64,000 nucleotides of DNA from an uncultured candidate division Zixibacteria bacterium (lineage in GTDB: Bacteria > Zixibacteria > MSB-5A5 > GN15 > FEB-12), in contig CAVTJJ010000006.1 of the NCBI GenBank assembly GCA_963735035.1, positions 128,001-192,000 on the forward strand. Reading direction: 5' to 3'. A program made the translations under genes and the position numbers. Positions 15,106-29,756 of the stretch are shown here, piece by piece. Position 1 is the first letter of the stretch. The number at the start of each line of letters is the position of its first letter. The notes beneath the pieces were generated by a model. It was not told the origin of the DNA, ran no database searches, and saw only the letters and a program-made list of their open reading frames with translations.

Positions 15106-15462
15106 GTGTTTGAGGAGCTTTATCCGATTCTCTTTCTGCTGATTGTAGCGACCGTCCTGGCAGTCGCTTTTACAGTACTGTCTGTGCTGTTTGGTCGCCG
15201 CACCCGCCTTGGCAAGAAAAACCAGCCCTATGAATGCGGGATTGACCCGGTGGGAACCACCCGCGACCCGGTGCCGGTTAAGTACTTCATGGTAGCAATA
15301 TCTTTCATATTGTTCGATATCGAAATCGTCTTCCTGCTTCCGTGGGCGGTGGTGGCGCGCGATCTCGGTATGTTCGGATTCGGCGCCATCGCGGTGTTCG
15401 TGCTTCTCGTTCTCGTTGGCTATTTCTATGAATTAGGCAAAGGGGCCCTCAGATGGGACTAG
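15106..15462 (+). CDS. nuoA: NADH-quinone oxidoreductase subunit A
   Basis: PYECG, FILFDIE..FL.PWA, KGAL.W. Confidence 0.96.
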
Positions 15463-15959
15463 AAGAGAAGATTCCGGACTCAGTCATTCTGACCACGATG
15501 GACAAGATGGTCAATTGGGCGCGAAGGCGTTCAATGTGGCCGCTTGGTTTCGGATTGGCCTGCTGTGCGATTGAAATGATGGCCACGTTCATGTCGAAAT
15601 ATGACATGTCGCGCTACGGCATGGAAGTTTTCCGGCCTTCACCGCGTCAGGCCGATCTGATGATTGTGGCGGGACGGGTGTCGGTCAAGATGGCGCCGGT
15701 GATCAAGACCCTGTACGAGCAGATGCCCAATCCGAAATGGGTAATTTCGATGGGCGCCTGTGCCTCCTGCGGCGGCGTATTCAATAACTATGCGATTGTC
15801 CAGGGTGTTGATCGAATCATCCCGGTTGATATGTACGTTCCCGGCTGTCCTCCTCGGCCGGAGCAGTTGATGGATGCTATCCTGAAATTGCACGCGAAAA
15901 TAGACAAGGAATCTCTCAAGCAGAAGCATGAGGAGTGGGGCCGAGCGCTCCAAAGATAG
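15453..15959 (+). CDS. nuoB: NADH-quinone oxidoreductase subunit B
   Basis: [28 protein letters not shown]. Confidence 0.97.
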
Positions 15960-16022
15960 TCGGTAAGTCGGCCGGAATGTGATCCGTACGCGACCTCTTG
16001 TGAAGATTGGTGCAAGCGTTCG

Positions 16023-16538
16023 ATGGAAGATAAAGTAAGGCAGTGGCTTCAGAGTCGGTTCGCTGAAAGTATTGTCAGCGAGGTCAGCTTCCGGGGGCAA
16101 CAATCATTCTATGTCCGCCCTGAATCGATCTTCCCGATCTGCCAGGCTCTCGTTGAAGACCGCGAACTCGAAATAGGTTATCTGGCCGATATTACTTCCT
16201 GTGACTGGTTGGGACATGAGGCCGAGATGGGCGGGCGGTTTGAAGTCGTATACAACTTGTATAGTCTGTCCCACAAGTATCGATTCTTCCTCAAGGTCAT
16301 GTTGCCGGGTGACAACCCCCAGATCGCCAGCCTGACGCCTCTTTGGAATGGGGCCAACTGGCTCGAGCGCGAAGTCTGGGATATGATGGGTATTCGCTTT
16401 ACCGGCCATCCTGATCTTACGAAGATTCTGACCCCTGACGAACTCGAAGGTTTCCCGCTCCGTAAGGACTTCCCACTCACCTATGAGGTTCCCCAGTTTA
16501 ATTGGAACAAGGACCTGCCGCCGGAGGTGATCAAGTAA
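16023..16538 (+). CDS. nuoC: NADH-quinone oxidoreductase subunit C
   Basis: RFEVVY.L.S, W.EREVWDM.GI.F.GHP, PLRKDFP. Confidence 0.96.
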   Translation: MEDKVRQWLQSRFAESIVSEVSFRGQQSFYVRPESIFPICQALVEDRELEIGYLADITSCDWLGHEAEMGGRFEVVYNLYSLSHKYRFFLKVMLPGDNPQIASLTPLWNGANWLEREVWDMMGIRFTGHPDLTKILTPDELEGFPLRKDFPLTYEVPQFNWNKDLPPEVIK

Positions 16539-17707
16539 TGGAAGCCCGGACCATACAGATCAACATGGGGCCGCAGCATCCGGCCACACACGGCGTACTC
16601 CGAGTCGAGTTGGAAATCGAGGGCGAGACGGTTGTCAAGGCCCGTCCGGTAATCGGCTACTTGCACACCGGGATCGAAAAGACAATGGAATCGAAGCTCT
16701 ATTACAAAGCGATTCCGTGCACCGACCGGATGGATTACCTCTCGCCGATGATGAACAATCTCGGGTACTGTCTGGCGGTCGAAAAGCTGATGGACATCGA
16801 GGTGCCGGAGAAGGTCAAATGGGCTCGGGTGCTTCTGGCGGAACTGACCCGAATCAAGTCGCATCTGGTCTGGCTCGGCACACATGCCATCGATCTGGGC
16901 GCCATGACCATGATCCTGTACGCTTTCCGCGAGCGCGAGATGATTATCGACATCTACGAAGCGTGCGCCGGCCAGCGCATGATGAGCACCTACATCAGAA
17001 TCGGCGGGCTCGCCGATGAACTCCCGCCGGATTTCGACAAGCTGGTCAGGAAGTTTCTGAAAGTCATGCCGGAGCGGATGAAGGATTACGAGAAGTTGCT
17101 TACCCGCAACCCGATCTTCATCCAGCGCACCAAAGGTGTGGCCGTGATATCGGCGGCCGACGCCCTCAACTGGTCGCTGTCCGGTCCGATGTTGCGCGGC
17201 AGCGGAGTCAAGAAAGACATCCGTAAGGATGAACCATACAGCGGGTACGAGAAATTCGATTTTGAGGTGGCCCTGGGTAAGAACGGCGATGCTTACGATC
17301 GGTATCTGCTCCGCCTGGAAGAGATGCGCCAGTCGCTCAGAATAATTCAGCAGGCGCTCGACGGAATGCCCCAGGGACCTTACCGGGCGCACGTTCCGGG
17401 AGTGGTGTTGCCGCCCAAGGAAGACATCCTGCACAAGATGGAATCGCTGATATTCCATTATAAGATTATCACCGAGGGTTTCAAGGCGCCGCGTGGTTCC
17501 GTCTATCAGGCGATCGAATCACCCAAGGGCGAGCTCGGTTTCTATATTGCCTCGGACGGCACCAACCGGCCCAACCGGATTCGCGTGCGGCCGCCGTCGT
17601 TTGTGAACCTGGCCGCGCTTCCGGCGCTGGTCGAAGGAAGGTTGCTGGCGGACGTCATTTGCGCCATCGGCACAGTGGATATCGTACTGGGAGAAGTCGA
17701 CCGATGA
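16538..17707 (+). CDS. nuoD: NADH-quinone oxidoreductase subunit D
   Basis: NMGPQHPATHGVLR, GYLH.G.EK, ESPKGE, DIVLGEVDR; TAATG coupling to nuoC. Confidence 0.97.
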   Translation: MEARTIQINMGPQHPATHGVLRVELEIEGETVVKARPVIGYLHTGIEKTMESKLYYKAIPCTDRMDYLSPMMNNLGYCLAVEKLMDIEVPEKVKWARVLLAELTRIKSHLVWLGTHAIDLGAMTMILYAFREREMIIDIYEACAGQRMMSTYIRIGGLADELPPDFDKLVRKFLKVMPERMKDYEKLLTRNPIFIQRTKGVAVISAADALNWSLSGPMLRGSGVKKDIRKDEPYSGYEKFDFEVALGKNGDAYDRYLLRLEEMRQSLRIIQQALDGMPQGPYRAHVPGVVLPPKEDILHKMESLIFHYKIITEGFKAPRGSVYQAIESPKGELGFYIASDGTNRPNRIRVRPPSFVNLAALPALVEGRLLADVICAIGTVDIVLGEVDR

Positions 17708-18198
17708 TGCTCACCGCTGAATCAGTGGCCCGCATCAAGGATGCGGCGTCGAAGTATCCCCAGGTGAAGTCGGCCGTTCTCCCGGCTCTGACGATTGCCT
17801 ATCGGCAGGTAGGTCATTTGAACGATGACATCTACGAGGAGATATCCCAGACGCTGGGCATACCGGCCGGGGAAATCGCCGAGGCGGCGTCGTTCTATAC
17901 CATGTTCCCCAAGCAACCGGTAGGGAAGTATCTCATTCAGGTCTGCCATAACATCTCCTGCTCGCTTCTGGGGGCGGAGAGTCTGATTTCTTATCTCGAA
18001 CAAAAGCTCGGTGTCCAGGTCGGCGAAACCACCCCCGACAATTTGTTCACGATCGTGCGGGTGGAATGTCTCGGCTCTTGTGCGACCGCGCCGATGATGC
18101 AGATCAATCATGATTACTACGAGAATCTGACTCGCAAGAAAGTCGACTCCGTTCTGGATCAACTTCGGTCGGATGCCCGCGCGGGAGGGAAACAATGA
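17704..18198 (+). CDS. nuoE: NADH-quinone oxidoreductase subunit E
   Basis: SFYTMF, CHNISC, ECLGSC..AP. Confidence 0.95.
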   Translation: MMLTAESVARIKDAASKYPQVKSAVLPALTIAYRQVGHLNDDIYEEISQTLGIPAGEIAEAASFYTMFPKQPVGKYLIQVCHNISCSLLGAESLISYLEQKLGVQVGETTPDNLFTIVRVECLGSCATAPMMQINHDYYENLTRKKVDSVLDQLRSDARAGGKQ

Positions 18199-19541
18199 GT
18201 TTCTACTCTCCCGTCAGAACGAACGCGTCCGAGGTGGCAGCATCAGAGGTGCTGCACTTGTTCCGTTATGTCGAAGACCCCGATCAGCCTAAGATCGCCA
18301 CATACGAGTCTCATGGTGGTTACACAGCCTGGAAGAAAGTTCTCAGTTCGATTACCCCCGAGCAGGTCACGGCCGAAGTCAAGAGTTCAGGTCTGCGTGG
18401 ACGTGGCGGAGCCGGATTCCCGGCCGGTATGAAGTGGGGATTCATCCCCAAAGATTCTACCAAACCGCGCTATCTGGTATGCAACGCTGACGAATCCGAG
18501 CCCGGCACGTGCAAAGATCGAGTACTAATGGAGCGTGACCCCCACGCCGTAATCGAAGGCATGGCGATCGCTTCGTTTGCAATCGGCTGCCATACGATGT
18601 TTATCTACATCAGGGGCGAATTCGGTTTCTCGATTGATGTCATGCGAACGGCGGTTGAAGAAGCGTACAAGAAGGGTCATCTCGGGAAGAACATCCACGG
18701 CAGCGGCTACGATCTGGAAATGGTCGTTCATAGCGGCGGCGGGGCTTATATCTGCGGTGAAGAAACTGCGCTACTAAATTCCCTCGAAGGCAAGCGCGGC
18801 AACGCGCGCATCAAGCCGCCTTTCCCGGCCGTAGCCGGACTGTATGATAGTCCAACGATTATCAACAACGTGGAAACTCTGGCAACCGTCCCGCACGTGA
18901 TCAATCGCGGGGCGGCGTGGTATCGCACTCTTGGCACCGAGAAGTCGACCGGCACGAAGATATTCAGCTTGTCCGGCCATGTGAAACAGCCCGGCAACTA
19001 TGAACTGATCCTGGGTCATTCTCTCAAAGATTTGATTTACTCGCCCAAGTACGGTGGCGGAATTCTTGGTGATAAGAAGCTGAAGGGTGTCATTCCGGGG
19101 GGATCATCCACACCGTTCTTGAGACCGGACCAGATTGATATTCCGCTCGATTATGAATCGCTATCCACAGCCGGTTCGATGCTTGGTTCGGGCGCGGTGA
19201 TAGTTTTCCACGAGGATACCTGTATCGTCTGGATAATAGCCAACCTGATCCGGTTCTATCGCCACGAATCGTGCGGCAAGTGTACGCCGTGTCGCGATGG
19301 CACAGGCTGGCTCCAGCAGATTATCAATCGCATCGAGGCCGGTGGCGGTCGACCAGGCGATATACAGAAGATAGAATCAATTTGCGGAAATATCTTCGGG
19401 CGAACCGTTTGCCCGCTGGGTGACGCGGCGGTGATGCCGATTCAGTCGGCGGTCAAGCAATACCGCGACGAATGGCAGTATCATATCGACCATGGCAAGT
19501 GTATGGTTGAATCGAAGTTTACGATGGCGGAAGGTGTCTGA
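18195..19541 (+). CDS. nuoF: NADH-quinone oxidoreductase subunit F
   Basis: GRGGAGF, NADESEPGT.KDR, YICGEETAL, ESCGKCTPCR.G...C. Confidence 0.97.
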   Translation: MSFYSPVRTNASEVAASEVLHLFRYVEDPDQPKIATYESHGGYTAWKKVLSSITPEQVTAEVKSSGLRGRGGAGFPAGMKWGFIPKDSTKPRYLVCNADESEPGTCKDRVLMERDPHAVIEGMAIASFAIGCHTMFIYIRGEFGFSIDVMRTAVEEAYKKGHLGKNIHGSGYDLEMVVHSGGGAYICGEETALLNSLEGKRGNARIKPPFPAVAGLYDSPTIINNVETLATVPHVINRGAAWYRTLGTEKSTGTKIFSLSGHVKQPGNYELILGHSLKDLIYSPKYGGGILGDKKLKGVIPGGSSTPFLRPDQIDIPLDYESLSTAGSMLGSGAVIVFHEDTCIVWIIANLIRFYRHESCGKCTPCRDGTGWLQQIINRIEAGGGRPGDIQKIESICGNIFGRTVCPLGDAAVMPIQSAVKQYRDEWQYHIDHGKCMVESKFTMAEGV

Positions 19542-22108
19542 TGGCTGAAGCTGTGAAACAAGATCAAGCTCCGGCTGTCGCTCGTCCGACCGTCACATTC
19601 ACGATAGACGGCCGTCAGGTCACGGTCCCCAAGGGAACGACTATTCTGCTGGCCGCCAAACAGGTCGGAATTGACATTCCCACGTTCTGCTGGCACCCGA
19701 AGCTGAGCATTGAAGGCGCCTGCCGGATGTGTTATGTCGAGATCGAAAAGTGGCCCAAGCTGGCTATCTCGTGCGCTACCGAAGCTATGGACGGCATGGT
19801 CGTCTACAGTAATTCCGAGAAAGTGAAGGAAGGCCGGCGCGCCGTCATAGAGTTCACCCTGTTGAATCACCCGCTCGACTGTCCGACCTGCGACAAGGGT
19901 GGGGAGTGCACGCTTCAGGACCTGACGTTCGCGCACGGCTTTGATGACTCGCGCTTCGATTTTCGCAAGAACCGATTTGGGGTACAGGAATCACAGACGA
20001 CCTTTGACGATGTCAAGATCGGCCCCGAGATAATTCTCAATCGGAACCGCTGTATCAGGTGTTATCGTTGCGTCCGTGCGAACAAAGAAGCGTTTGGCGA
20101 ATACGATCTGGGAGCATTTGAGCGCGGCGATCACACCGAAATCAATGCCGCTCCCGGCCGTCAGGTTGACAATCCGTTTTCGGGTAATCTAGTTGAGATT
20201 TGTCCGGTCGGCGCCCTTACCAATACCGACTGGCGCTATAAGATAAGAGTCTGGCTGACCCAGACCGTTTCGTCAATTTGTCCGTTCCATAGCTCGGGCA
20301 CGAATACTCTGATCTACAATAACGGCACCCGGGGACGCATCTTTCGCGTGACTTCGCGGCCCAATGATGAAATCGACGATGGCTGGCTGACCGATCTTAC
20401 CCGCTACGGGTATCAGATGGTCACGTCCGATGATCGCCTGCGCACACCACTCATCAAGAAGGGTGGAAAGCAGGTCGAGGCCGACTGGAACGAAGCCCTA
20501 TCAGTGATCGGCGAACGACTGACCGAAATAATCGAGAAGAAGGGCCGGGTCTGTGTCGGTGGGTTGGTTTCGCCGTCTTTGGACAACGCCTCACTTTTCG
20601 GATTCTCAAAGCTGTTCCGTACCGTGCTCGGCTCGAACAATATCGATTCACGCACCGACTATCGCATGTTGCCGGTGTTGCCGGGCGGAGCTTATGATAT
20701 TCTCTGCAGCCAGCGCTTCAAGATCGCCGATATTGACTCGTCCGATGTCATCTTTACGCTGGGTAGTGATCTGATCAGGGAGCATCCGAACGAATACCTG
20801 CGCATGCGCCGGGCGTTCAACATTAAGGGTGCGACCATTTACGCGGCCAATCCGTACGGTACCAAATCTGCCGATATCGCGCGCACCGAGCTCGTGTACA
20901 AAGCCGGCACCGAAGAAATACTGCTCAACGGTATCTGTCTGGCGGCTATCGAAGACAAGCTGATTGACGCCGGGCGGATTGGCGACCTGCGCAAGAAGAT
21001 TTCTCCTACGACGGCGGCAGACGCCGCCCGGCTCGCAGGTGTCGAAGCTGGTCTGCTTCATGAAGTCGCGGCGGCGCTTGTGCGCGGCCGCAAGATCACC
21101 CTCTTTGCAGGTGAAATAGTCAGCCGTTCCCGCGACCGCGAAGCTATTGCCGCGGCGCTGTGTAACTTGATCCGACTTTTTGGTATCAACGATAAAGGCC
21201 AATTTGCAGTTCTGCCGCGCTATGCCAATTCCCGCGGCGCTCGCGACCTCGGCCTGGCCCCGAATCCTGCCGAGCCGGTGAAGAATTGTCTGAGAGAGCT
21301 CTGGGGTGACTGGCCCGAGGTTCAGCCGCTTACATCCGACCAAATGATGGTCGGTATGAAGAAGGAAGAAATCAACGGCTGCCTGGTGATTGGCGCCAAT
21401 CCGGTGATGTTGTATCCGGACCGCGAATTTGCCCACGACGCCCTGGAAGGTTTGGATTTCCTGGTCGTCGCTGATATGTACGAGACCGAGACCACGGCCC
21501 TGGCCGATGTGGTTCTGCCGCTGTCATCATGGGCTGAGTACGACGGCTACTATGTCAATTTGGAAGGTCGGACGCAGTTGGCCGGGCGCGCCATGCCCCC
21601 CAGATTCAAGTCGAAGCCGGGATACGAAATAGCTGACCTCATTGGCAAGCAGCTTGGTGTCGACTTGTTCGAATCACTCGAACAGCGGGATGATATGATA
21701 AGTAAAGTCCTGGCTGTGGATTCAGTCACGGCATTGCCCGGTACGTATCTCGAAGTCAAGACGACCCCAGACGAGGCCGGCAAAGAATATCCTATCGCCC
21801 TTTTTGTTGGCGATGATGCTCATCACAGCGGTCACTTGACCGAGAAGGCGATGTCGCTGGTCAATTTCTGCAGTGAAGCTTATGTCGAGATGTCGGCCGC
21901 TCTGGCGAAGCGCCTGAAGCTCGAAACCGGAGATTCGGCCAGGATTGAATCGGAGACGGGCAAACTGATTGTCCAGGTGAGGATAGTGCCGCACATGACT
22001 GGTGACGCCGTGTTCGTTCCGCGAAATTTCTCCGCGTCTCCGGTAAACTCGCTTATTATGCGCAAGCGGCGGGTCGACTGGGTTAAGATCAGCAAGGTTG
22101 TAGGTTAA
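19541..22108 (+). CDS. nuoG: NADH-quinone oxidoreductase subunit G
   Basis: GACRMC, NHPLDCPTCDKGGEC.LQD, RCIRCYRCVR, ICPVGAL; molybdopterin-fold C-terminus. Confidence 0.95.
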   Translation: MAEAVKQDQAPAVARPTVTFTIDGRQVTVPKGTTILLAAKQVGIDIPTFCWHPKLSIEGACRMCYVEIEKWPKLAISCATEAMDGMVVYSNSEKVKEGRRAVIEFTLLNHPLDCPTCDKGGECTLQDLTFAHGFDDSRFDFRKNRFGVQESQTTFDDVKIGPEIILNRNRCIRCYRCVRANKEAFGEYDLGAFERGDHTEINAAPGRQVDNPFSGNLVEICPVGALTNTDWRYKIRVWLTQTVSSICPFHSSGTNTLIYNNGTRGRIFRVTSRPNDEIDDGWLTDLTRYGYQMVTSDDRLRTPLIKKGGKQVEADWNEALSVIGERLTEIIEKKGRVCVGGLVSPSLDNASLFGFSKLFRTVLGSNNIDSRTDYRMLPVLPGGAYDILCSQRFKIADIDSSDVIFTLGSDLIREHPNEYLRMRRAFNIKGATIYAANPYGTKSADIARTELVYKAGTEEILLNGICLAAIEDKLIDAGRIGDLRKKISPTTAADAARLAGVEAGLLHEVAAALVRGRKITLFAGEIVSRSRDREAIAAALCNLIRLFGINDKGQFAVLPRYANSRGARDLGLAPNPAEPVKNCLRELWGDWPEVQPLTSDQMMVGMKKEEINGCLVIGANPVMLYPDREFAHDALEGLDFLVVADMYETETTALADVVLPLSSWAEYDGYYVNLEGRTQLAGRAMPPRFKSKPGYEIADLIGKQLGVDLFESLEQRDDMISKVLAVDSVTALPGTYLEVKTTPDEAGKEYPIALFVGDDAHHSGHLTEKAMSLVNFCSEAYVEMSAALAKRLKLETGDSARIESETGKLIVQVRIVPHMTGDAVFVPRNFSASPVNSLIMRKRRVDWVKISKVVG

Positions 22109-22112
22109 CGCG

Positions 22113-23096
22113 ATGCTGGAATTCGTTCTCATAGCGTCGATCAAGGTCATCGCGGTGATTCTTGTCTTGCTGACCGGGTGCGCCTACTCGACCTACATGG
22201 AGCGCAAAGTGGTGGCATTCATGCAGCACCGTATCGGTCCGCTCTATGCCGGACCGTACGGATTACTTCAGCCGGTAGCAGATGCTATTAAACTGATCTT
22301 CAAGGAAGACCTTGTCCCAGATAAGGCGGAGCGATTCGCATATACGATTGCCCCGATGATATCGTTTATGCCGGCGGTGCTGGTTTTCGCCGTAGTGCCG
22401 TTCTCGAGTGATTTCTCGCTCTTTGGCCGACATATTTCGGGCGTTATCTCGGACCTAAATATCGGCGTGCTCTGGGTGTTTACGATTGGATCGCTCGGCG
22501 TATATGGCACGATTTTGGCGGGCTGGTCGAGCGGATCGAAATATTCACTAATGGGCGGGCTGCGCGCCTCGGCGCAGACGATATCGTATGAACTGGCCTA
22601 TGGGCTTTCTATCGTTGGCGTAATCATATTAGCCAACACCCTGTCGATGACCGAGCTGGTGGCCAAGCAGGCGACGATTGCTGATTGGTATATCTGGAAA
22701 CAACCGCTCGGTTTCGTGCTGTATTTCATCTGCGCCATCGCCGAGACCAATCGGTCGCCGTTCGATCTGCCCGAAGCGGAATCGGAACTGGTGGCCGGTT
22801 ATATGACCGAGTATTCATCGATGCGGTTCGCGACGTTCTTCATAGGCGAATACGCTCATATGATCGCGGTTGGCGCGGTCGGGTCGACTCTGTTCTTCGG
22901 GGGCTGGCAGGGGCCGTGGTTGCCGCCGATTCTCTGGATGGTCATCAAGGTGTTCCTGTTCATCTTCGTCTATATCTGGATTCGCTCGACCCTGCCGAGG
23001 TTCCGGTATGACCAATTGATGAATTTCGGCTGGAAAGTGCTGTTCCCACTGGCCGTGTTGAATACACTTATTACCGGTTTGATTGTGGTATGGTAG
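22113..23096 (+). CDS. nuoH: NADH-quinone oxidoreductase subunit H
   Basis: GLLQP.AD..KL..KE, AETNRSPFDLPEAESELV.G, PRFRYDQLM. Confidence 0.97.
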   Translation: MLEFVLIASIKVIAVILVLLTGCAYSTYMERKVVAFMQHRIGPLYAGPYGLLQPVADAIKLIFKEDLVPDKAERFAYTIAPMISFMPAVLVFAVVPFSSDFSLFGRHISGVISDLNIGVLWVFTIGSLGVYGTILAGWSSGSKYSLMGGLRASAQTISYELAYGLSIVGVIILANTLSMTELVAKQATIADWYIWKQPLGFVLYFICAIAETNRSPFDLPEAESELVAGYMTEYSSMRFATFFIGEYAHMIAVGAVGSTLFFGGWQGPWLPPILWMVIKVFLFIFVYIWIRSTLPRFRYDQLMNFGWKVLFPLAVLNTLITGLIVVW

Positions 23097-23125
23097 GGCA
23101 TTAGCAGCGGCTATCGACAAATTGT

Positions 23126-23632
23126 ATGAAAGAACTCTTTAGAACATTAGTCGACACGTTCGTAAAGATGCCGCAAGGTTTTGCGGTGACGTTTCGGCAT
23201 ATGTTCAAACGGCCGGTCACTCTGGATTACCCGCGCAAGCGGGAACCGATGTCGCCCCGATACCGTGGGCTGCACTATCTGGAGCGTTATGAGGACGGCT
23301 CGGAGCGCTGTGTCTGCTGTGGGCTGTGTGCGGCGGCCTGTCCGGCCGATGCCATCTACATGGAACCGGCTGAGAACGAAAAAGGGGAGCGGTACGCCAA
23401 GATTTACGAAATCAACATGATCCGCTGTATTTTCTGCGGTTTTTGTGAAGAGGCCTGTCCCGAGGAAGCTATATTCCTCGGACGCGAATATGAGTTTGCC
23501 ACCGACAACCGGGACGGTTTCATTTACTCGAAAGAACAATTGCTGGTGCCGTATCCGAGAAAAGAGAATCCGTTCAAGAAGTTGATCAGACGGGTGCGGA
23601 AAGTTTACGGAGTTCCGGAAAGCCACCGATGA
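23126..23632 (+). CDS. nuoI: NADH-quinone oxidoreductase subunit I
   Basis: Two CxxCxxCxxxCP motifs; RCIFCGFCEEACP. Confidence 0.97.
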   Translation: MKELFRTLVDTFVKMPQGFAVTFRHMFKRPVTLDYPRKREPMSPRYRGLHYLERYEDGSERCVCCGLCAAACPADAIYMEPAENEKGERYAKIYEINMIRCIFCGFCEEACPEEAIFLGREYEFATDNRDGFIYSKEQLLVPYPRKENPFKKLIRRVRKVYGVPESHR

Positions 23633-24201
23633 ATCTCGACTTGATCATGTTTACAGTGTCCGCCGTCGTGGCGGTTTTTGGCGCGACCATGATGATTGCC
23701 CAGCGCAGTCCGGTGGCGTCGGTACTGTACATGATTCTGTCTCTGGTTGCGCAGGCGGTGTGCTACGTGCAGCTCGGGGCACTCTTCCTGGGGGCGATCC
23801 TGGTCGTGGTCTACGCGGGCGCTATCATGGTGCTGTTCCTGTTCGTTATCATGCTGTTGAATCTCCGGGGCAGTGAAGACCTGGGCGCCGCACCGCCGCC
23901 TTTGAGCCAGTTGACCAAGTATATCTTTGCGGTGCTGCTCACGTTGGAGCTGGTCTTCATAGTCAAGGCAGCACTTCTGGCGCAGACAACGACAGGAATC
24001 CTCGAAACGCCGGCCGATGGTTTCGGCTCGGTACAGTCTGTCGCAAAAAGCCTGTTCACCGACTATCTGTATCCGTTCGAACTGACCGGTGTTCTCCTGC
24101 TGGCCGCCGTAGTCGGAGCCGTGGTTATTGGCAAGAAACGCCGACTTCTCGATGCGGGTGATGGACAGGCAGACACTACCGCCGGGGAGACAAAGGAGTA
24201 G
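23629..24201 (+). CDS. nuoJ: NADH-quinone oxidoreductase subunit J
   Basis: VYAGAIMVLFLFVIMLL, PFE. Confidence 0.95.
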   Translation: MNLDLIMFTVSAVVAVFGATMMIAQRSPVASVLYMILSLVAQAVCYVQLGALFLGAILVVVYAGAIMVLFLFVIMLLNLRGSEDLGAAPPPLSQLTKYIFAVLLTLELVFIVKAALLAQTTTGILETPADGFGSVQSVAKSLFTDYLYPFELTGVLLLAAVVGAVVIGKKRRLLDAGDGQADTTAGETKE

Positions 24202-24202
24202 C

Positions 24203-24505
24203 ATGGTACCAATATCGGCATTCCTGGTTCTGGCAGCGGTGTTGTTCGGTATTGGAGCGATCGGCGTGCTCATCACACGCAATATGATCGTGCTCTTTAT
24301 GTCTGTCGAGATGATGCTCAACGCCGCCAACCTGGCGCTGATGGCCTTCTCGCGGGCGCTTAATATTGTCGACGGTCACGTAATCGTATTTCTGGTGCTG
24401 ACGATAGCCGCCGCGGAAGCCGCGGTTGGCTTGGCTCTGATAGTAATGGTTTACCGTAATCGCGAAACGATCAACATCGACCGCTTTAGTCTGATGAAAT
24501 GGTAG
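24203..24505 (+). CDS. nuoK: NADH-quinone oxidoreductase subunit K
   Basis: E.MLNAANL, AAAEAAVGLA; AAGGAG RBS before ATG 24203. Confidence 0.96.
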   Translation: MVPISAFLVLAAVLFGIGAIGVLITRNMIVLFMSVEMMLNAANLALMAFSRALNIVDGHVIVFLVLTIAAAEAAVGLALIVMVYRNRETINIDRFSLMKW

Positions 24506-24516
24506 GACGTTCGTAG

Positions 24517-26457
24517 ATGGCTGACCTGCTTTTCCTGATTCCACTATTACCGCTGGCCGGGTTTCTAATAAACGGCCTGTTGCTGGGCCGTCTGCCCAAG
24601 CCGGTGATCAGCCTGGTGGCGTGTGGATCAGTAGGGCTGTCGTTCCTCTTGTCCCTGGCGGCCTTCTACAATCTGGCGTCGATGCCGTCGGACGCCCGCC
24701 AGATGACGCAGACCTTGTTCACCTGGATATCCTCGGATCTTCTGCACGTGAATTTCGGTTTCCTGCTCGACCCGCTGTCGGCGGTAATGATTCTTGTGGT
24801 CACCGGAGTAGGCTTCCTCATTCACGTTTATTCCATCGGTTACATGAGCCACGACCACGGTTACGGGCGATTTTTCGCCTACCTGAATCTGTTCATGTTC
24901 TCGATGCTCGTGCTGGTTCTGGCCGACAATTTCCTCTTGCTCTTCGTCGGTTGGGAAGGGGTGGGCCTATGCTCGTACTTGCTGATTGGGTTTTGGTACG
25001 AAAAACAGTCTGCGACTGACGCCGGTAAGAAGGCGTTCATCGTCAACCGGATCGGCGATTTTGGCTTCCTGCTCGGCATGTTTATCATCTTCTGGAATGT
25101 TGGATCGCTCGATTTCATAACGGTCTCGAAGATGGCTCCGGAAGTGTTTGTGGCGGGCGGTGGTCTGATTACCGCGACCGGTCTACTGCTGTTCCTCGGA
25201 GCGTGTGGTAAATCGGCGCAGCTTCCGCTGTATGTCTGGCTGCCGGATGCGATGGAAGGCCCCACGCCGGTCTCGGCCTTGATTCATGCGGCCACGATGG
25301 TGACGGCCGGTGTCTACATGCTGGCGCGCACCAACGTGCTGTTCCTGATGGCGCCTGATGCCCTGATGGTGGTAGCTGTCGTTGGTGCTGCGACGGCCCT
25401 ATTTGCGGCGAGCATCGGTCTGGCGCAAAACGATATCAAGAGAGTGTTGGCGTACTCGACCGTCAGTCAGCTCGGCTATATGTTTCTCGCCTGCGGTGTG
25501 GCGTCGTTTACGGCCGGTATCTTCCACCTGATGACCCACGCCTTCTTCAAGGCGCTTCTGTTTCTTGGGGCCGGATCGGTCATTCACGCCATGTCCGGAG
25601 AGCAGGACATGCGCAACATGGGCGGTCTTAAGAGCCATGTGCCGATTACGTTCCGGACGATGTACATAGCGACTCTCGCCATTGCGGGAATTCCGTTCTT
25701 TGCCGGGTTCTTCTCGAAGGACGAAATTCTCTGGAAGGCGTATTCTTCGCCCATGCACGGCGGCTGGTTGTTCTGGTTGGTCGGTGTGGCCGGTGCGGCG
25801 CTGACCGCATTCTATATGTTCCGTCTGATCTATCTGACTTTCTATGGCTCCGAGCGGATGAGTTCCGAGGTCAAGCACCACTTGCACGAGTCGCCCAAGA
25901 CGATGACCATACCGCTGGTGGTGTTGGCGGCGCTTTCGGTTGTCGGCGGATTCGTGGGTATCCCTGGTACGTGGGGACTGCCCAACCTCTTTGAAGAATG
26001 GCTGGCGCCGGTGATGCACGGCCACGCTCAGGCCGCGGCCGAACACGCATTGGCGTCAACAGGAGAATCTGCTTCGGAAGAACTGACTCTCATGTTGCTG
26101 TCAATCGCGGTCGTGCTAACTTCGATTTATATGGCTCGGTATTTCTATAAGAAGAACCTCACGGCGGCTACCAGCCTGGCTTCAAAGTTGAGTGGTGTTC
26201 GTACTGTTCTGGCCAATAAGTACTATGTGGACGAGATCTATGGCGCCGTGATCATTCGGCCGCTGGTCTATTTCTCGGTCTTCTTGTGGAAGATAGTTGA
26301 CGTCATTATCATAGATGGCACTTTGAACGGTCTGGCGGTGGTCTGGGGCGAAGTGTCCAACACTCTACGCTTCAGTCAGTCCGGACAGTTGCGCAGTTAT
26401 GCTACGATATTCTCGGTGGGCGTAGTGATACTGATCGCCTATTTCATGTTTGGATAA
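24517..26457 (+). CDS. nuoL: NADH-quinone oxidoreductase subunit L
   Basis: GWEGVGLCSY, KSAQ.PL..WLPDAMEGPTPVSALIHAATMV, HAFFKA. Confidence 0.97.
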   Translation: MADLLFLIPLLPLAGFLINGLLLGRLPKPVISLVACGSVGLSFLLSLAAFYNLASMPSDARQMTQTLFTWISSDLLHVNFGFLLDPLSAVMILVVTGVGFLIHVYSIGYMSHDHGYGRFFAYLNLFMFSMLVLVLADNFLLLFVGWEGVGLCSYLLIGFWYEKQSATDAGKKAFIVNRIGDFGFLLGMFIIFWNVGSLDFITVSKMAPEVFVAGGGLITATGLLLFLGACGKSAQLPLYVWLPDAMEGPTPVSALIHAATMVTAGVYMLARTNVLFLMAPDALMVVAVVGAATALFAASIGLAQNDIKRVLAYSTVSQLGYMFLACGVASFTAGIFHLMTHAFFKALLFLGAGSVIHAMSGEQDMRNMGGLKSHVPITFRTMYIATLAIAGIPFFAGFFSKDEILWKAYSSPMHGGWLFWLVGVAGAALTAFYMFRLIYLTFYGSERMSSEVKHHLHESPKTMTIPLVVLAALSVVGGFVGIPGTWGLPNLFEEWLAPVMHGHAQAAAEHALASTGESASEELTLMLLSIAVVLTSIYMARYFYKKNLTAATSLASKLSGVRTVLANKYYVDEIYGAVIIRPLVYFSVFLWKIVDVIIIDGTLNGLAVVWGEVSNTLRFSQSGQLRSYATIFSVGVVILIAYFMFG

Positions 26458-26460
26458 GCG

Positions 26461-28047
26461 ATGGACAATATATTCTTGACATTGGTGACGTTCATGCCGC
26501 TTCTCGGGGCGGTGTTGCTGCTGTTTGTCCCGCGCGAGAGAGATGATACGGTCAAAGGCGTAGCGCTGATCATATCATTCATAACGCTTTTGCTGTCCAT
26601 CGCGATCTTCAAATTCTTCGATCCAAACGCCACCGGCATGCAGTTCTCCGTCGATGTGCCCTGGGTGCTTTCGCTCGGCATTCATTATCATATGGGTATC
26701 GACGGCATCTCGCTTCTGTTGATCGTGCTGACCAGTTTCCTGACGGTCCTGTGTGTGATAGCCTCGTGGAACTCGATCAAGCACGGTGTCAAAGGCTTCT
26801 ATATTTCGCTGCTGCTACTGACGACCGGGATGATCGGCGTCTTCTGTGCGCTGGACCTGTTCCTGTTCTATGTCTTCTGGGAAGTCATGCTGATTCCGAT
26901 GTATTTCATCATCGGCGTCTGGGGTGGCCCTAGGCGGGTCTATGCCGCCATCAAGTTCGTTCTGTTCACGATGTTCGGCTCGGTGCTGATGCTGGTGGCG
27001 ATACTGTACGTCTACTTCCAGTATCAGACCTATTCGGGCGAGTATACGTTTGATTTGCTGAAGTTGACCGCGATGCCATCACTGGCTGTCCAGCCCCAGT
27101 TGTGGCTCTTTGGAGCTTTCGCCCTGGCCTTTGCGATCAAGGTGCCGCTGTTTCCGTTCCATACCTGGTTACCCGATGCACATGTTCAGGCGCCTACCGT
27201 GGGTTCGGTCATTCTTGCGGGTGTACTGCTAAAGATGGGAACCTACGGTTTCTTGCGTATTTGCATGCCGCTCTTCCCGGAGGCGACGGTCATCTACTTG
27301 CCCTATATATGTGTCCTCGCGTTAATTGCAGTTGTGTATGGGGCGCTGGTGTCGATGGTCCAGCGGGACATCAAGTCACTGGTGGCGTTCTCTTCCGTGT
27401 CGCACATGGGCTTTATCATGCTCGGCATGTTCGCGCTCAATATTCAGGGGATGGAGGGCGCGGTTCTTCAGATGGTCAATCACGGGATTTCCACGGGAGC
27501 GCTCTTCTTGATCGTGGGCATGATCTACGAGCGGCGCCACACGCGGATGATTGAGGATTTCGGTGGCATAGCCAAGGTGATGCCGGTATTTGCTGTCTTC
27601 CTGATGATCTTTACGCTCTCGTCAATCGGCTTGCCTCTTACGAACGGGTTTGTGGGCGAGTTCCTGATTCTGCTGGGGGCGTTCAAAGCGAATACGACAT
27701 ACGGCGTTATTGCGGCCAGCGGCGTGGTTCTGGCCGCTTGCTATATGCTCTGGATGTATCAGCGCGTCATTTACGGCAAGATTACCAAGCCGGAGAACGA
27801 GAAACTGACCGATCTCACCGCTCGCGAGAAACTGGTGCTGATTCCTCTGGTCGTAATGGTGTTCTGGATCGGAGTGTACCCGTCGACCTTTACTTCGCGC
27901 ATCGAACCCGCGGTGAAACAGATATTGACTCAGGTAGCGCCCGCGCGGGCTGCCGAGCAGATACTACCCGCAGTAAAAGACCTGCGAGCCGGTGATGCAC
28001 CCACTGATTCGCTTCCGGCGGTAGTCGTGTCAGAGGTGTCGAAGTGA
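26461..28047 (+). CDS. nuoM: NADH-quinone oxidoreductase subunit M
   Basis: FYVFWE..LIP, KVP..PFHTWLPDAH..AP, LLKMG.YG, FVGEF. Confidence 0.97.
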   Translation: MDNIFLTLVTFMPLLGAVLLLFVPRERDDTVKGVALIISFITLLLSIAIFKFFDPNATGMQFSVDVPWVLSLGIHYHMGIDGISLLLIVLTSFLTVLCVIASWNSIKHGVKGFYISLLLLTTGMIGVFCALDLFLFYVFWEVMLIPMYFIIGVWGGPRRVYAAIKFVLFTMFGSVLMLVAILYVYFQYQTYSGEYTFDLLKLTAMPSLAVQPQLWLFGAFALAFAIKVPLFPFHTWLPDAHVQAPTVGSVILAGVLLKMGTYGFLRICMPLFPEATVIYLPYICVLALIAVVYGALVSMVQRDIKSLVAFSSVSHMGFIMLGMFALNIQGMEGAVLQMVNHGISTGALFLIVGMIYERRHTRMIEDFGGIAKVMPVFAVFLMIFTLSSIGLPLTNGFVGEFLILLGAFKANTTYGVIAASGVVLAACYMLWMYQRVIYGKITKPENEKLTDLTAREKLVLIPLVVMVFWIGVYPSTFTSRIEPAVKQILTQVAPARAAEQILPAVKDLRAGDAPTDSLPAVVVSEVSK

Positions 28048-28265
28048 GCAACGTGACGATATACACCAAAGTTGGTTGCCCTTACTGTGCCGCGGCGAAA
28101 AAGCACTTTGCCGAACAAGGCATTGCATTTGATGAGATCGATGTGCACCAGACACCTGGCGCGAAGGACAAATTGAATCAGCTCAGCGACGGCCGCAATA
28201 TCGTTCCGGTAATTGTAGAGAATGGCAAAGTAACGGTTGGATTTGGCGGTGGTTGAGGAATATAG
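28044..28265 (+). CDS. Glutaredoxin-like protein, probable selenoprotein (UXX-star type, C-terminus GGG-U-G-I); 70 aa to the TGA at 28254-28256, 73 aa with Sec
   Basis: CPYC and VPVI Grx motifs; GAGGTG RBS; GTGA overlap with nuoM stop; TGA-GGA-ATA-TAG followed by a hairpin. Confidence 0.8.
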
Positions 28266-28288
28266 GACGGGTGGCGGTCGCCACTATT
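28257..28288 (+). promoter_or_regulatory. Candidate bacterial SECIS element
   Basis: Stem GTGGC(28271-28275)/GCCAC(28280-28284), loop GGTC starting with G about 20 nt 3' of the in-frame TGA. Confidence 0.6.
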
Positions 28289-28289
28289 A

Positions 28290-29756
28290 GTGAGTACGAT
28301 GGTTGATTACGTTTCAGCGCTCTCGATTGATCTGAATCTGGTGTATCCGGAGATTGCACTGGTGATCGCCTCGTTTGTGTTGCTGGCCATAGCCTGTGTC
28401 CGGCGACTGAACGCAGCTGCTCCGTGGGTGACTCTGCTGGCTTATCTGGTCGTGCTCTGGTTGGTGATAAATCAGTGGGATCATCAGGGTTCCGGCTTTA
28501 GTGACATGGTGCTGTGTGACAATTTCGGCATCATGTTCAAATTGATTTTCGTGTTCACCTCAATCGTAACCGTCCTGCTGGCCCAGGATTACATGAAAGG
28601 GCGCGGACTCGACCTGCCCGAGTTCTATGCACTGATGCTTATGTCCACCTGCGGTATGATGGCCATGGCCAACACCGCAGACCTGGTGGTCATGCTGATC
28701 GGGCTTGAAGTTATGTCGGTGCCGCTGTATGTCATGGCCGGGTTCGATCACCGCTCGCTCAAGTCCAACGAGGCGGGCGTCAAGTATTTCATGATGGGAG
28801 CGTTTTCGTCGGCCTTCCTCCTGATGGGTATTGCGCTGATCTACGGCGCAACTGAGACTACAAATCTGCGACGGATCGTCACTGATTTCAGCTATCTCGC
28901 TTATCATCAGGAATCGTCGGTATATATTATGGCCGGGGCGATCCTGGTCCTGGTCGGTTTTGGGTTCAAAGTTGCAGCGGTGCCATTTCACAGTTGGGTG
29001 CCCGATGTCTATCAGGGAGCGCCGACCCCGGTGACCGCATTCTTCTCGGTGGCTCCAAAAGCGGCCGGGTTTGCGGTATTGCTGCGGATCTTTGTTTTCG
29101 GCTTCTCCGGTCTGGGAGACCTCTCAACGGTCTTCTGGGTGCTCGCTGTATTGACAATGTCGCTGGGGAACATCCTGGCACTGCGGCAGGACAATATCAA
29201 ACGGATGCTGGCCTATTCCTCAATTTCACACGCCGGCTACGTGCTCGTAGCATTGGCGGTGGGAGGACCTGAGGCAGTCAGCGCCGCCATTTTCTACCTG
29301 TCGGCCTATGCCATGTTCAATCTGGGTGCTTTTGCCGTAGTCACTCTCTTGGAGAACGGCGCGGGACGCAAAGCCGATTTCAGCGAATTGACCGGCATGT
29401 CCAAGGTTCATCCGTATCTGACCGCAGTACTCGCGCTGTTCATGTTCGCGTTAGCCGGATTTCCACCAACAGCCGGGTTCTTCGGAAAATTCTTTCTCTT
29501 TTCGGCGGCCGTGCGCTCAGGTTTCATCTGGTTGGCCGTGTTCGGCGTGCTCAATTCATTCGTGTCGGTCTATTTCTATCTGCGAGTCATCAAGGTGAGT
29601 TACTTCGACACGAGCGAAGAGCCGTTTGAAAAGGCGAGACTGTCACCGGCCATGCTGGTAGCCCTGGCGATAACCGTGATCGGCACGCTGGGCGTCGGCC
29701 TAATGCCGCACCAACTGTTGAGTATGTCTGTGGCGGCCATATTCGGCCTGCCGTAG
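28290..29756 (+). CDS. nuoN: NADH-quinone oxidoreductase subunit N (start GTG 28290 or ATG 28299)
   Basis: EAG.KYF, FKVAAVPFH.W.PDVYQGAPTP, KRMLAYSSI.HAGY, G.PPTAGF.GK. Confidence 0.96.
   Translation: MSTMVDYVSALSIDLNLVYPEIALVIASFVLLAIACVRRLNAAAPWVTLLAYLVVLWLVINQWDHQGSGFSDMVLCDNFGIMFKLIFVFTSIVTVLLAQDYMKGRGLDLPEFYALMLMSTCGMMAMANTADLVVMLIGLEVMSVPLYVMAGFDHRSLKSNEAGVKYFMMGAFSSAFLLMGIALIYGATETTNLRRIVTDFSYLAYHQESSVYIMAGAILVLVGFGFKVAAVPFHSWVPDVYQGAPTPVTAFFSVAPKAAGFAVLLRIFVFGFSGLGDLSTVFWVLAVLTMSLGNILALRQDNIKRMLAYSSISHAGYVLVALAVGGPEAVSAAIFYLSAYAMFNLGAFAVVTLLENGAGRKADFSELTGMSKVHPYLTAVLALFMFALAGFPPTAGFFGKFFLFSAAVRSGFIWLAVFGVLNSFVSVYFYLRVIKVSYFDTSEEPFEKARLSPAMLVALAITVIGTLGVGLMPHQLLSMSVAAIFGLP

What the first reader, a model, noticed from the sequence alone, without database searches (positions are those of the whole stretch)
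28044..28288. Probable selenocysteine glutaredoxin inside the complex I operon, between nuoM and nuoN
Seen: a CPYC glutaredoxin whose GTG overlaps the nuoM stop (GTGA). Its apparent stop is GGT-TGA-GGA-ATA-TAG, followed by a GC-rich hairpin whose loop starts with G about 20 nt after the UGA. Known: bacterial SECIS elements lie just 3' of the UGA, and Grx-like proteins ending U-x-x-stop are a recognised (seleno)protein type. Inference: a Sec redoxin co-translated with the membrane arm of complex I, possibly for thiol/Fe-S maintenance or redox control. I know of no canonical nuo operon with this insertion.
Basis: partly seen in the sequence, partly recalled or inferred. Interest (0 to 1): 0.8.

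Follow-up and report, generated by a model that had tools for sequence, protein, structure and literature searches.

The report
Selenocysteine glutaredoxin inside complex I operon
A small glutaredoxin-like gene wedged between two complex I membrane-subunit genes almost certainly encodes a selenoprotein of an already catalogued family, and this placement is conserved across many Zixibacteria, hinting at a selenium-based redox helper for the respiratory enzyme.

Summary
Window 28044-28265 (+) encodes a 73-aa glutaredoxin-fold protein (CPYC ... GFGGG-U-G-I-stop). It matches NCBIfam NF041212, 'Uxx-star family glutaredoxin-like (seleno)protein', end to end at 117 bits against a cut-off of 66.

The genome has tRNA-Sec, selA, selB and selD. 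In 39 of 39 relatives' loci the TGA is invariant. It is followed by exactly two sense codons and then a stop that varies between TAA, TAG and TGA.

A 6-7 bp hairpin with a G-GU loop lies 3' of the true stop. It covaries strongly, and its spacing from the UGA equals that of the selD SECIS in the same genome. Cys-x-x-stop homologues exist elsewhere in the family.

The nuoM-grx-nuoN order holds in every carrier locus examined in the phylum. 192 of 285 genomes carry the gene, and there are several apparent losses.

The family is known. I found no printed report of the complex I context, although one key paper could not be read.

Function is inferred, not shown: a Cys12-Sec71 redox pair, probably fed by thioredoxin reductase and co-expressed with complex I. 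No carrier-specific cysteine target was found in any Nuo subunit.

The parts
15106..29756 (+). Complete 14-gene nuoA-N operon (A B C D E F G H I J K L M [grx] N) with the selenoprotein gene as a 15th cistron
   Evidence: NCBIfam hits for every subunit. The same colinear order is seen in 20 carrier regions.
26461..28047 (+). nuoM. Its TGA stop (28045-28047) overlaps the GTG start of the grx gene (GTGA).
   Evidence: TIGR01972 653 bits; sequence. Overlap or a gap of a few nt between nuoM and grx is also seen in relatives (coordinates).
28044..28265 (+). Uxx-star glutaredoxin-like selenoprotein gene: 73 codons including Sec, then the TAG stop
   Evidence: Translation with TGA=U. NF041212 117.3 bits against cut-off 66, profile positions 1-70 of 70. 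AF2 model pLDDT 90.4 with Grx/NrdH folds as best PDB matches.
28077..28088 (+). CPYC active-site codons (Cys12, Cys15)
   Evidence: Invariant G-C-P-Y-C in 39 of 39 sequences. Cys15 is Ser in 2 of 30 more distant carriers.
28254..28256 (+). In-frame TGA read as selenocysteine (Sec71)
   Evidence: Invariant TGA in 39 of 39, 80 of 80 and 30 of 30 loci. It aligns with Cys in Cys-x-x-stop homologues.
28257..28265 (+). Two-codon tail GGA ATA (Gly-Ile) and the true stop TAG
   Evidence: The +1 codon uses all four Gly codons (GGA 16, GGT 8, GGG 7, GGC 6; 2 non-Gly). The +2 codon is Phe, Ile or Val. The stop is TAA 18, TAG 14, TGA 7.
28270..28285 (+). SECIS hairpin in the 33-nt spacer before nuoN: 6-bp stem with loop GGUC (28276-28279)
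   Evidence: Covariation score 0.636 against 0.249 in shuffles (0 of 500 reach it) and 0.08-0.19 in slid controls. RNAalifold predicts the same 6 pairs, all with compensatory changes. Spacing matches the selD SECIS.
28299..29756 (+). nuoN (probable ATG start; the longest ORF starts at GTG 28290)
   Evidence: TIGR01770 451 bits. The conserved ATG context in relatives is shown.

Best explanation
Window 28044-28265 encodes a 73-residue member of the Uxx-star family of glutaredoxin-like selenoproteins.

Decoding. The ribosome reaches UGA 28254, three codons before the end. SelB with Sec-tRNA(Sec), held by the hairpin at 28270-28285, inserts selenocysteine. The hairpin lies beyond the true stop, in the spacer before nuoN. 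Translation then adds Gly-Ile and stops at TAG. I put this part at about 0.95; it rests on comparative evidence, not on protein chemistry.

Expression. The gene is a fixed 15th cistron of the nuoA-N operon. Its start overlaps the nuoM stop, so it is made together with complex I.

Mechanism (inferred, about 0.4-0.5). Sec71 sits on a glycine-rich tail directly after the last beta-strand, where classical glutaredoxins carry their GG motif next to the active site. It pairs with the nucleophilic Cys12. The selenolate attacks an oxidised substrate such as a peroxide, sulfenic acid or disulfide. Cys12 resolves the product to a selenenylsulfide, Cys15 passes it on as a disulfide, and thioredoxin reductase rather than glutathione re-reduces the protein.

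Role. Its job in this operon is probably redox protection or repair around complex I. It is accessory, not essential, because several lineages lost it and kept the operon.
For: Family: NF041212 scores 117.3 bits against a cut-off of 66 across the whole profile, tail included.

Sec machinery: tRNA-Sec, selA (511 bits), selB (328 bits) and selD (394 bits, itself with an in-frame TGA).

Conservation:
- The TGA is invariant and followed by exactly 2 codons and a variable stop in 39 of 39 loci, 80 of 80 and 30 of 30. These sets overlap in genomes.
- The tail Gly codon shows synonymous variation.

SECIS:
- 87.9% of cells are paired against 67.7% in shuffles.
- All 7 pairs show changes on both sides.
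- No shuffle (0 of 500) reaches the covariation score, and RNAalifold agrees.
- The loop G is invariant and the following U is at least 90% conserved.
- The stem starts at +16 and the loop GU lies at +23/+24 from the U of UGA, the same as in the selD SECIS of this genome.

Sec/Cys pairs: P0161, P0169, P0191 and P0260 end in Cys-x-x, pass NF041212, and their Cys aligns with the Sec.

Redox pair:
- In A5, which contains one member of the nuo clade and 7 non-nuo Cys forms, Cys12 and position 71 are the only invariant Cys columns.
- 6 of the 7 Cys forms are CxxS/T.
- 2 of 30 carriers are CPYS plus Sec.

Reductant: no gshB match; TrxB at 358 bits against a cut-off of 343.

Operon link: the nuoM-grx-nuoN order holds in all carrier loci that reach the flanks. 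The gene is present in 192 of 285 genomes of the phylum. No promoter-like or terminator-like site lies in 27800-28600.
Against:
- The hairpin alone is not unusually stable, and Rfam has no matching family.
- No Cys form was found inside a nuo operon, so the Sec/Cys pairing comes from more distant family members.
- No cysteine is conserved in all carriers and absent from non-carriers in any of the 14 Nuo subunits. NuoF Cys106 and NuoH Cys23 track one clade, not the presence of the gene: the carriers of families f13 and f6 lack them, and the two recent losers keep them.
- Loss of the gene in at least five lineages with an intact operon shows complex I works without it.
- In Thermoleophilia a close homologue sits next to a heavy-metal P-type ATPase instead, so the family is not tied to complex I.
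- The position of Sec71 relative to Cys12 was not measured, because no model coordinates were available.
Confidence: 0.8

Rival explanations
1. It is a real Uxx-star selenoprotein, but it only hitch-hikes in the nuo operon. It would be a general cytoplasmic thiol/selenol oxidoreductase or peroxide scavenger, expressed under respiratory conditions, with no specific relation to complex I.
For: - No carrier-specific Cys target exists in any Nuo subunit.
- The gene was lost repeatedly while the operon stayed intact.
- Family members occur in unrelated neighbourhoods.
Against: - The position between nuoM and nuoN, with start-stop overlap, is held across at least 11 families of the phylum in every carrier locus examined.
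- No second copy was found elsewhere in carriers, and no relocated copy in non-carriers, at E <= 1e-10.
- Divergence of the protein runs parallel to that of NuoM and NuoN (Spearman 0.75 and 0.69, n = 63, kin not independent).
Confidence: 0.3
2. Cys12, Cys15 and Sec71 form a metal or metalloid binding site. The protein would act as a chaperone or buffer (for example for Cu, Hg, As or Se), not as a redox catalyst.
For: [quoted passage not shown]
- In 3 of 80 loci (Thermoleophilia) the homologue lacks nuo flanks. In L119, the only one of these with clear neighbour hits, it directly follows a P-type ATPase with HMA domains, near rhodanese and AhpC genes.
Against: - No metal-handling gene lies in or beside the nuo operon here.
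- The glutaredoxin cis-Pro (V54-P55) and the CPYC motif are those of redox-active Grx/NrdH proteins.
- CPYC with Pro is, from recalled knowledge, a poor Fe-S ligand set.
Confidence: 0.15
3. The TGA is an ordinary stop and the product is a 70-residue glutaredoxin, as public annotation has it. The conserved downstream bases and hairpin would serve nuoN translation or mRNA stability.
For: - All of the top 120 database relatives are annotated as roughly 70-residue 'glutaredoxin family protein'.
- The hairpin ends 13 nt before the nuoN ATG.
Against: - The first stop is always TGA while the second varies between TAA, TAG and TGA.
- There are always exactly two sense codons in between, with synonymous Gly changes.
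- Cys occupies the aligned position in homologues.
- The curated family profile includes the tail.
- The full Sec machinery is present.
- The SECIS spacing equals that of selD.
- The 70-residue annotations are what gene callers produce for any unrecognised selenoprotein.
Confidence: 0.03

Closest known systems
NCBIfam NF041212, Uxx-star family glutaredoxin-like (seleno)protein
   Same: Small glutaredoxin fold, N-terminal CxxC-type site and a C-terminal G-G-x-U/C-x-x-stop. The window protein passes the cut-off over the full profile.
   Different: The nuo-linked clade fits none of the three named sub-families robustly:
- Family 2: 80.1 bits against a cut-off of 100.
- Family 3: 71.8 against 97.
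- Family 1: 75.6 against 72 for the window protein, but 66.9 for a distant carrier.

I did not find its fixed place inside nuoA-N in print.
[quoted passage not shown]
   Same: Same fold and the same U-x-x-stop ending. The score is marginally above the cut-off.
   Different: The review's table gives this family a UxxT motif and two Sec residues. The window protein has CPYC and one Sec. A clear family-1 member (P0169, 108 bits) has CGYT and a C-terminal Cys.
HUGP/GUXX-star fusion selenoprotein (NF045501)
   Same: Carries the same Uxx-star module at its C-terminus (P0146, 341 bits).
   Different: There the module is fused to a C_GCAxxG_C_C redox domain. Here it stands alone in a respiratory operon.
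C-terminal Gly-Cys-Sec-Gly-stop redox centre of mammalian thioredoxin reductase (recalled)
   Same: Sec lies on a flexible tail two residues from the C-terminus and exchanges electrons with an N-terminal dithiol. The SECIS therefore lies beyond the stop codon.
   Different: Unrelated fold and size. In TrxR the partner of Sec is the adjacent Cys, whereas here it is inferred to be Cys12 of the CPYC motif. This is a bacterial SECIS, not a eukaryotic one.
NrdH-redoxin / YruB-type glutaredoxin-like proteins
   Same: About 75-residue Grx fold reduced by thioredoxin reductase rather than glutathione. 1h75, 4hs1 and 3zit are among the fold matches. The genome has TrxB but no gshB match.
   Different: Scores are below the family cut-offs: TIGR02194 50.7 against 85.75 and TIGR02196 59 against 88.55. 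There is no ribonucleotide reductase context, and there is an extra Sec tail.
E. coli fdhF-type bacterial SECIS (recalled)
   Same: A short hairpin a fixed distance 3' of the UGA with an essential G-U in the apical loop.
   Different: The hairpin lies wholly in untranslated spacer, after the stop codon. There is no Rfam family match.
Thioredoxin-fold accessory subunit NDUFA2 and Grx2-dependent deglutathionylation of mitochondrial complex I (recalled)
   Same: A thioredoxin-fold protein functionally tied to complex I.
   Different: No homology is claimed, and no evidence of binding was obtained here.

Membership tests
Uxx-star glutaredoxin-like (seleno)protein, NF041212 | HMM score above the curated cut-off over the whole profile | tested here: met
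   117.3 bits against 66, profile 1-70 of 70. 110.1 bits without the tail.
Uxx-star glutaredoxin-like (seleno)protein, NF041212 | Glutaredoxin/thioredoxin fold with an N-terminal CxxC-type motif | tested here: met
   PF00462 E 1.8e-16. AF2 pLDDT 90.4. Grx/NrdH chains are the top PDB matches, TM about 0.79.
Uxx-star glutaredoxin-like (seleno)protein, NF041212 | C-terminal U (or C)-x-x-stop | tested here: met
   GGT TGA GGA ATA TAG. Conserved in 39 of 39, 80 of 80 and 30 of 30 loci.
Uxx-star glutaredoxin-like (seleno)protein, NF041212 | Selenocysteine actually incorporated | not testable with these tools
   Needs 75Se labelling or mass spectrometry of the C-terminal peptide.
[quoted passage not shown] | Equivalog cut-off and the family's Sec motif (UxxT with two Sec, per the review table) | tested here: inconclusive
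   75.6 bits against 72 with the tail and 68.7 without. The active site is CPYC, not UxxT. A distant carrier scores 66.9.
Bacterial SECIS element | Hairpin at a fixed short distance 3' of the UGA | tested here: met
   The stem starts at +16 in the window and at the same alignment columns in 39 sequences. The selD SECIS has the same offset.
Bacterial SECIS element | Conserved G(U) in the apical loop | tested here: met
   The loop G is invariant and the following T is at least 90% conserved.
Bacterial SECIS element | Structure kept by compensatory changes | tested here: met
   7 of 7 pairs show changes on both sides. No shuffle (0 of 500) reaches the score, and the slid controls are far lower. 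6 of 6 pairs in RNAalifold.
Bacterial SECIS element | Binding by SelB | not testable with these tools
   Needs a binding assay or a reporter. Rfam gave no match, but it may hold no model for this type.
Sec-decoding organism | tRNA-Sec, SelA, SelB and SelD present | tested here: met
   all above the family cut-offs. selA was found in 264 of 285 genomes of the phylum.
Classical glutathione-dependent glutaredoxin (e.g. Grx3, TIGR02181) | Family cut-off and a glutathione supply | tested here: not met
   53.6 bits against 90. No gshB (TIGR01380) match in a 96.9% complete genome. gshA was not searched.
NrdH-redoxin (TIGR02194) | Family cut-off | tested here: not met
   50.7 bits against 85.75.
Subunit of respiratory complex I | Gene inside the nuo operon, co-inherited with it | tested here: met
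Subunit of respiratory complex I | Physical association with the complex | not tested
   No usable computational answer was obtained; it needs purification or cryo-EM.

The most novel reading that the evidence does not exclude
The protein is a dedicated selenium-containing accessory factor of bacterial complex I. It would be a 15th, loosely bound or transient subunit that uses a Cys12-Sec71 selenenylsulfide to remove peroxide or re-reduce oxidised thiols at the enzyme. It would be ancestral to a large part of the Zixibacteria and lost several times. That would make it the first selenoprotein tied to respiratory complex I and a bacterial counterpart to the thioredoxin-fold accessory proteins of the mitochondrial enzyme.
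Probability: 0.2. Interest if true: 0.8.

Novelty: new member of a known kind. Interest (0 to 1): 0.5.

Why it matters
Annotation. The top 120 database relatives are annotated as 70-residue 'glutaredoxin family protein'. A whole clade of selenoproteins in an uncultured phylum is therefore mis-annotated by three residues, and those three include the catalytic one.

Decoding. It is a natural case of a bacterial SECIS placed entirely after the stop codon, an arrangement otherwise known to me from engineered constructs (recalled).

Respiration. The canonical 14-gene nuo operon is one of the most conserved gene arrays in bacteria. A conserved 15th cistron encoding a Sec redoxin gives a concrete, testable link between selenium and complex I redox maintenance. 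The repeated natural losses provide ready-made comparisons.

Tried and rejected
Complex prediction. A second request with only the window's NuoM and the 70-residue code-11 Grx returned 'no answer' with score 0.00. This is not evidence either way. NuoN and the other subunits were not tried.

RNA evidence. No RNA holder was listed for 27500-28900. Only one DNA run held a 0.04 share of the words, and I did not lay it.

Rfam. No match in 28150-28400 at E <= 10.

Hairpin as intrinsic terminator. No terminator-like or promoter-like site lies in 27800-28600.

Carrier-specific cysteine target:
- First pass on NuoM and NuoN, 65/66 carriers against 5 non-carriers: none found.
- Second pass on all 14 subunits, 21 carriers against 14-18 non-carriers: NuoF Cys106 (EPGT-C-KDR; 19 of 21 against 0 of 14) and NuoH Cys23 (19 of 21 against 2 of 14) looked promising.
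- However, the carriers of families f13 and f6 have Phe at NuoF 106 and Met/Val at NuoH 23, and the two recent losers keep Cys.
- On a midpoint-rooted FastTree of concatenated Nuo B, D, F, H, L and M, the Cys marks one clade, not the presence of the gene. I rejected it as a specific target.

Apparent Cys forms in family f5. The 'no stops inside' rows were alignments that ended before the TGA because of a one-residue insertion (GGGSUGF). All are Sec forms.

Literature:
- No hits for nuoM/nuoN with selenoprotein and glutaredoxin-like.
- None for glutaredoxin with 'nuo operon' and selenocysteine.
- Nothing relevant for Zixibacteria with selenocysteine or with glutaredoxin, or for complex I, glutaredoxin, nuo and accessory subunit.
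- The BSepDB paper has no relevant passage.
- Haft and Tolstoy 2025 (mSystems), the source of UXX-star family 2 and the fusion family, is not held. It may already describe this neighbourhood.

Earlier findings of this scan. Nothing was shown.

P0232, an apparent fusion, looks like a chimeric gene call and was ignored.
Full report
**What is there.**
The + strand of the window carries a complete nuoA-N operon from 15106 to 29756, and every subunit is recognised by NCBIfam. Between nuoM (26461-28047) and nuoN lies a short ORF. Its GTG start (28044) overlaps the nuoM stop as GTGA. Under the standard code it gives 70 residues with a CPYC motif and ends GGT TGA. Two sense codons (GGA ATA) and a TAG follow. 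Pfam calls it a glutaredoxin (E 1.8e-16). A hairpin follows, with stem 28270-28275 / 28280-28285 and loop GGUC. nuoN probably starts at ATG 28299, which matches the start conserved in relatives, so the spacer is 33 nt and holds the 16-nt hairpin.

**Family.**
Read with Sec (scored as Cys), the 73-residue protein matches NCBIfam NF041212, 'Uxx-star family glutaredoxin-like (seleno)protein', at 117.3 bits against a cut-off of 66. The match covers profile positions 1-70 of 70, tail included. Other family models score as follows:
- Classical Grx3 (53.6 bits against a cut-off of 90), NrdH (50.7 against 85.75) and YruB (59 against 88.55) are not reached.
- Of the three named UXX-star sub-families, only family 1 is marginally reached (75.6 against 72).

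A review lists family 1 with a UxxT motif and two Sec residues (PMC13188914, passages seen), which this protein does not have. An AlphaFold2 model built on 39 relatives is confident (pLDDT 90.4). It matches solved glutaredoxins and NrdH-like proteins.

**Is the TGA read as selenocysteine?**
- *Machinery.* The genome (3.61 Mb, 96.9% complete) has tRNA-Sec (67.6 bits; ARAGORN anticodon tca), selA (511 bits) and selB (328 bits) side by side, and selD (394 bits). selD itself carries an in-frame TGA.
- *Conservation.* 39 of 41 related genomes, the own one included, have the gene. In 39 of 39 loci the TGA is invariant and is followed by exactly two sense codons and a stop.
  - That second stop is TAA 18, TAG 14 and TGA 7.
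  - The first tail codon uses all four glycine codons (16, 8, 7 and 6, plus two non-Gly codons).
  - The second tail codon encodes Phe, Ile or Val.
  - The same pattern holds in 80 of 80 loci from a scan of public genomes and in 30 of 30 loci from seven further families of the phylum. These three sets share genomes and are not independent.
- *Sec/Cys pairs.* More distant family members end in Cys-x-x (P0161, P0169, P0191, P0260 and others). They pass NF041212, and their Cys aligns with the Sec column.
- *Public annotation.* The 120 closest relatives in the protein database are almost all 70 residues long and named 'glutaredoxin family protein' or 'glutaredoxin 3'. Public annotation stops them at the TGA.

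**The SECIS.**
In the window alone the hairpin is no more stable than shuffled sequence (z = 0.38), and Rfam has no match. Across 39 sequences a hairpin occupies the same columns. The first loop G is invariant and the next base is T in at least 90% of sequences.
- For a 7-pair helix, 87.9% of cells pair, against 67.7 +/- 1.6% in shuffles.
- All 7 pairs show changes on both sides.
- The covariation score is 0.636 against 0.249 +/- 0.022 in shuffles; 0 of 500 shuffles reach it.
- Sliding the partner by 1-3 columns gives scores of 0.08-0.19.
- RNAalifold independently predicts six of these pairs, all with compensatory changes.

As an internal control I examined the selD gene of the same genome. 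It has a hairpin whose stem starts 16 nt after the U of its UGA, with loop GU at +23/+24. The grx hairpin has the same offsets: stem at 28270 and GU at 28277-28278. The hairpin is not followed by a T-run, and no terminator-like site is found. Because Sec lies two codons before the stop, the whole SECIS lies in untranslated spacer.

**Distribution and context.**
Titles of the closest public contigs name Zixibacteria / Zixiibacteriota. Some records of the same GTDB family carry other submitter labels.
- *Presence.* 192 of 285 genomes of the phylum (140 of 198 high-quality ones) have the gene at E <= 1e-10. Nine families have none: f7, f8, f11, f12, f14, f16, f17, f19 and f20. These still have selA, which is found in 264 of 285 genomes overall.
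- *Synteny.* Every carrier locus that reaches its flanks has nuoM upstream and nuoN downstream. Among the best 80 public loci, 77 do.
- *Exceptions.* The three exceptions are Thermoleophilia. In L119 the homologue follows a heavy-metal P-type ATPase, near rhodanese and AhpC genes; L132 gave only a partial hydrolase-domain hit, and L138 was not examined.
- *Non-carriers.* nuoM and nuoN are directly adjacent, including in two genomes of the window's own family. Most non-carriers have the same colinear A-N operon.
- *Gains and losses.* On a midpoint-rooted FastTree of concatenated Nuo B, D, F, H, L and M, carriers occur in both major clades. Non-carrier families are nested beside carrier families: f14 beside f13, and f16 plus f17 beside f6. 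Two losses lie inside f1. This suggests an old insertion with several losses. The tree has no outgroup, I did not inspect support values, and gains by transfer are not excluded.

**How it probably works.**
In the 39 nuo-clade sequences both CPYC cysteines are invariant. In A5, the alignment with 7 Cys-ended family members that lie outside any nuo operon, Cys12 and position 71 are the only invariant Cys columns.
- Six of the seven Cys-ended homologues have CxxS or CxxT active sites.
- Two of 30 distant carriers are CPYS plus Sec.

This points to a Cys12-Sec71 pair, with Cys15 as a dispensable resolving thiol. The Sec follows a G-F/W-G-G-G stretch directly after the last strand. In classical glutaredoxins a GG motif at that place lines the glutathione site next to the active cysteine (recalled). 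I could not measure the distance because no model coordinates were available.

The genome gave no glutathione synthetase match (gshA was not searched) but has thioredoxin reductase. An NrdH-like electron supply is therefore the likelier one. The start-stop overlap with nuoM, the lack of promoter-like or terminator-like sites and the conserved order argue for co-expression with complex I.

**What I could not support.**
I looked for a cysteine in any Nuo subunit that is conserved in carriers and absent from non-carriers. NuoF Cys106 (in EPGT-C-KDR; 19 of 21 against 0 of 14) and NuoH Cys23 (19 of 21 against 2 of 14) stood out. Both follow one clade, not the gene. Carriers of f13 and f6 lack them, and the two recent losers keep them. 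So no specific thiol target in complex I is indicated, and the repeated losses show that the protein is not needed for the core enzyme. A hitch-hiking general redoxin, or a metal-binding role, remain real alternatives. The metal-binding role is the one the review suggests for the family, and the Thermoleophilia context fits it.

**Novelty.**
The family is catalogued (NCBIfam) and appears in a 2026 review (PMC13188914, passages only). The window protein is a member of it. I found no printed mention of its fixed place in the nuo operon of Zixibacteria. The paper most likely to mention it (Haft and Tolstoy 2025) is not in the held library. I therefore rate it a new member of a known kind, with an apparently unreported and unusually stable genomic context.

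Noticed in passing
own genome C3:544642-545568 (locus L018): selD is itself a selenoprotein gene (in-frame TGA in ...VACAG-U-ASK...). Its SECIS hairpin has the same offset from the UGA as the grx hairpin.
   Followed up: partly
own genome C6:279334-279426 and C6:290312-293537 (the window is C6:128001-192000): tRNA-Sec and an adjacent selA-selB pair lie on the same contig, about 87-101 kb beyond the window's end.
   Followed up: no
L175 (G080) and L176 (G011): Two high-quality genomes of the window's own family have nuoM and nuoN directly adjacent, with no grx gene and no match elsewhere. These look like recent losses.
   Followed up: partly
L180-L182 and second hits: Many genomes of the phylum carry a second, divergent nuoM/nuoN pair (nuoN 35-42% identical), without the grx gene.
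   Followed up: no
L119, L132, L138 (Thermoleophilia contigs): Close Uxx-star homologues (...GFGGGUGV) outside any nuo operon. In L119 the gene lies immediately downstream of an HMA-domain P-type ATPase, with rhodanese and AhpC-like genes nearby.
   Followed up: partly
L166, L171 (family f13 carriers): The active site is CPYS (monothiol) while the C-terminal Sec is kept, inside the same nuoM-nuoN position.
   Followed up: partly
window 18195-19541 (nuoF), residues 96 and 106: NuoF has Cys at the F/C-variable position of the EPGT-x-KDR motif. The cysteine marks one clade of the phylum (f1, f3, f4, f5, f9); the other families examined have Phe.
   Followed up: yes
P0146 (database protein): Fusion of a C_GCAxxG_C_C redox domain with a Uxx-star module that ends at ...GFGGG, i.e. 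probably truncated before a Sec. It matches NF045501, the HUGP/GUXX-star fusion selenoprotein.
   Followed up: partly
L095, L108 and other loci: Contigs that the GTDB-based tool places in the window's family carry submitter labels such as Ignavibacteriales, Calditrichaeota or Deferrimicrobium. L095 encodes the same protein as L031.
   Followed up: no
window 12100-13431 and 13707-14267 (+): Two ORFs just upstream of nuoA (443 and 186 aa) have no NCBIfam match at E <= 1e-10.
   Followed up: no
L195-L198 (families f19, f20): In the stretch fetched, only nuoJ-N lie together. nuoA-I were not found within 14 kb upstream, so the operon seems split in these families.
   Followed up: no
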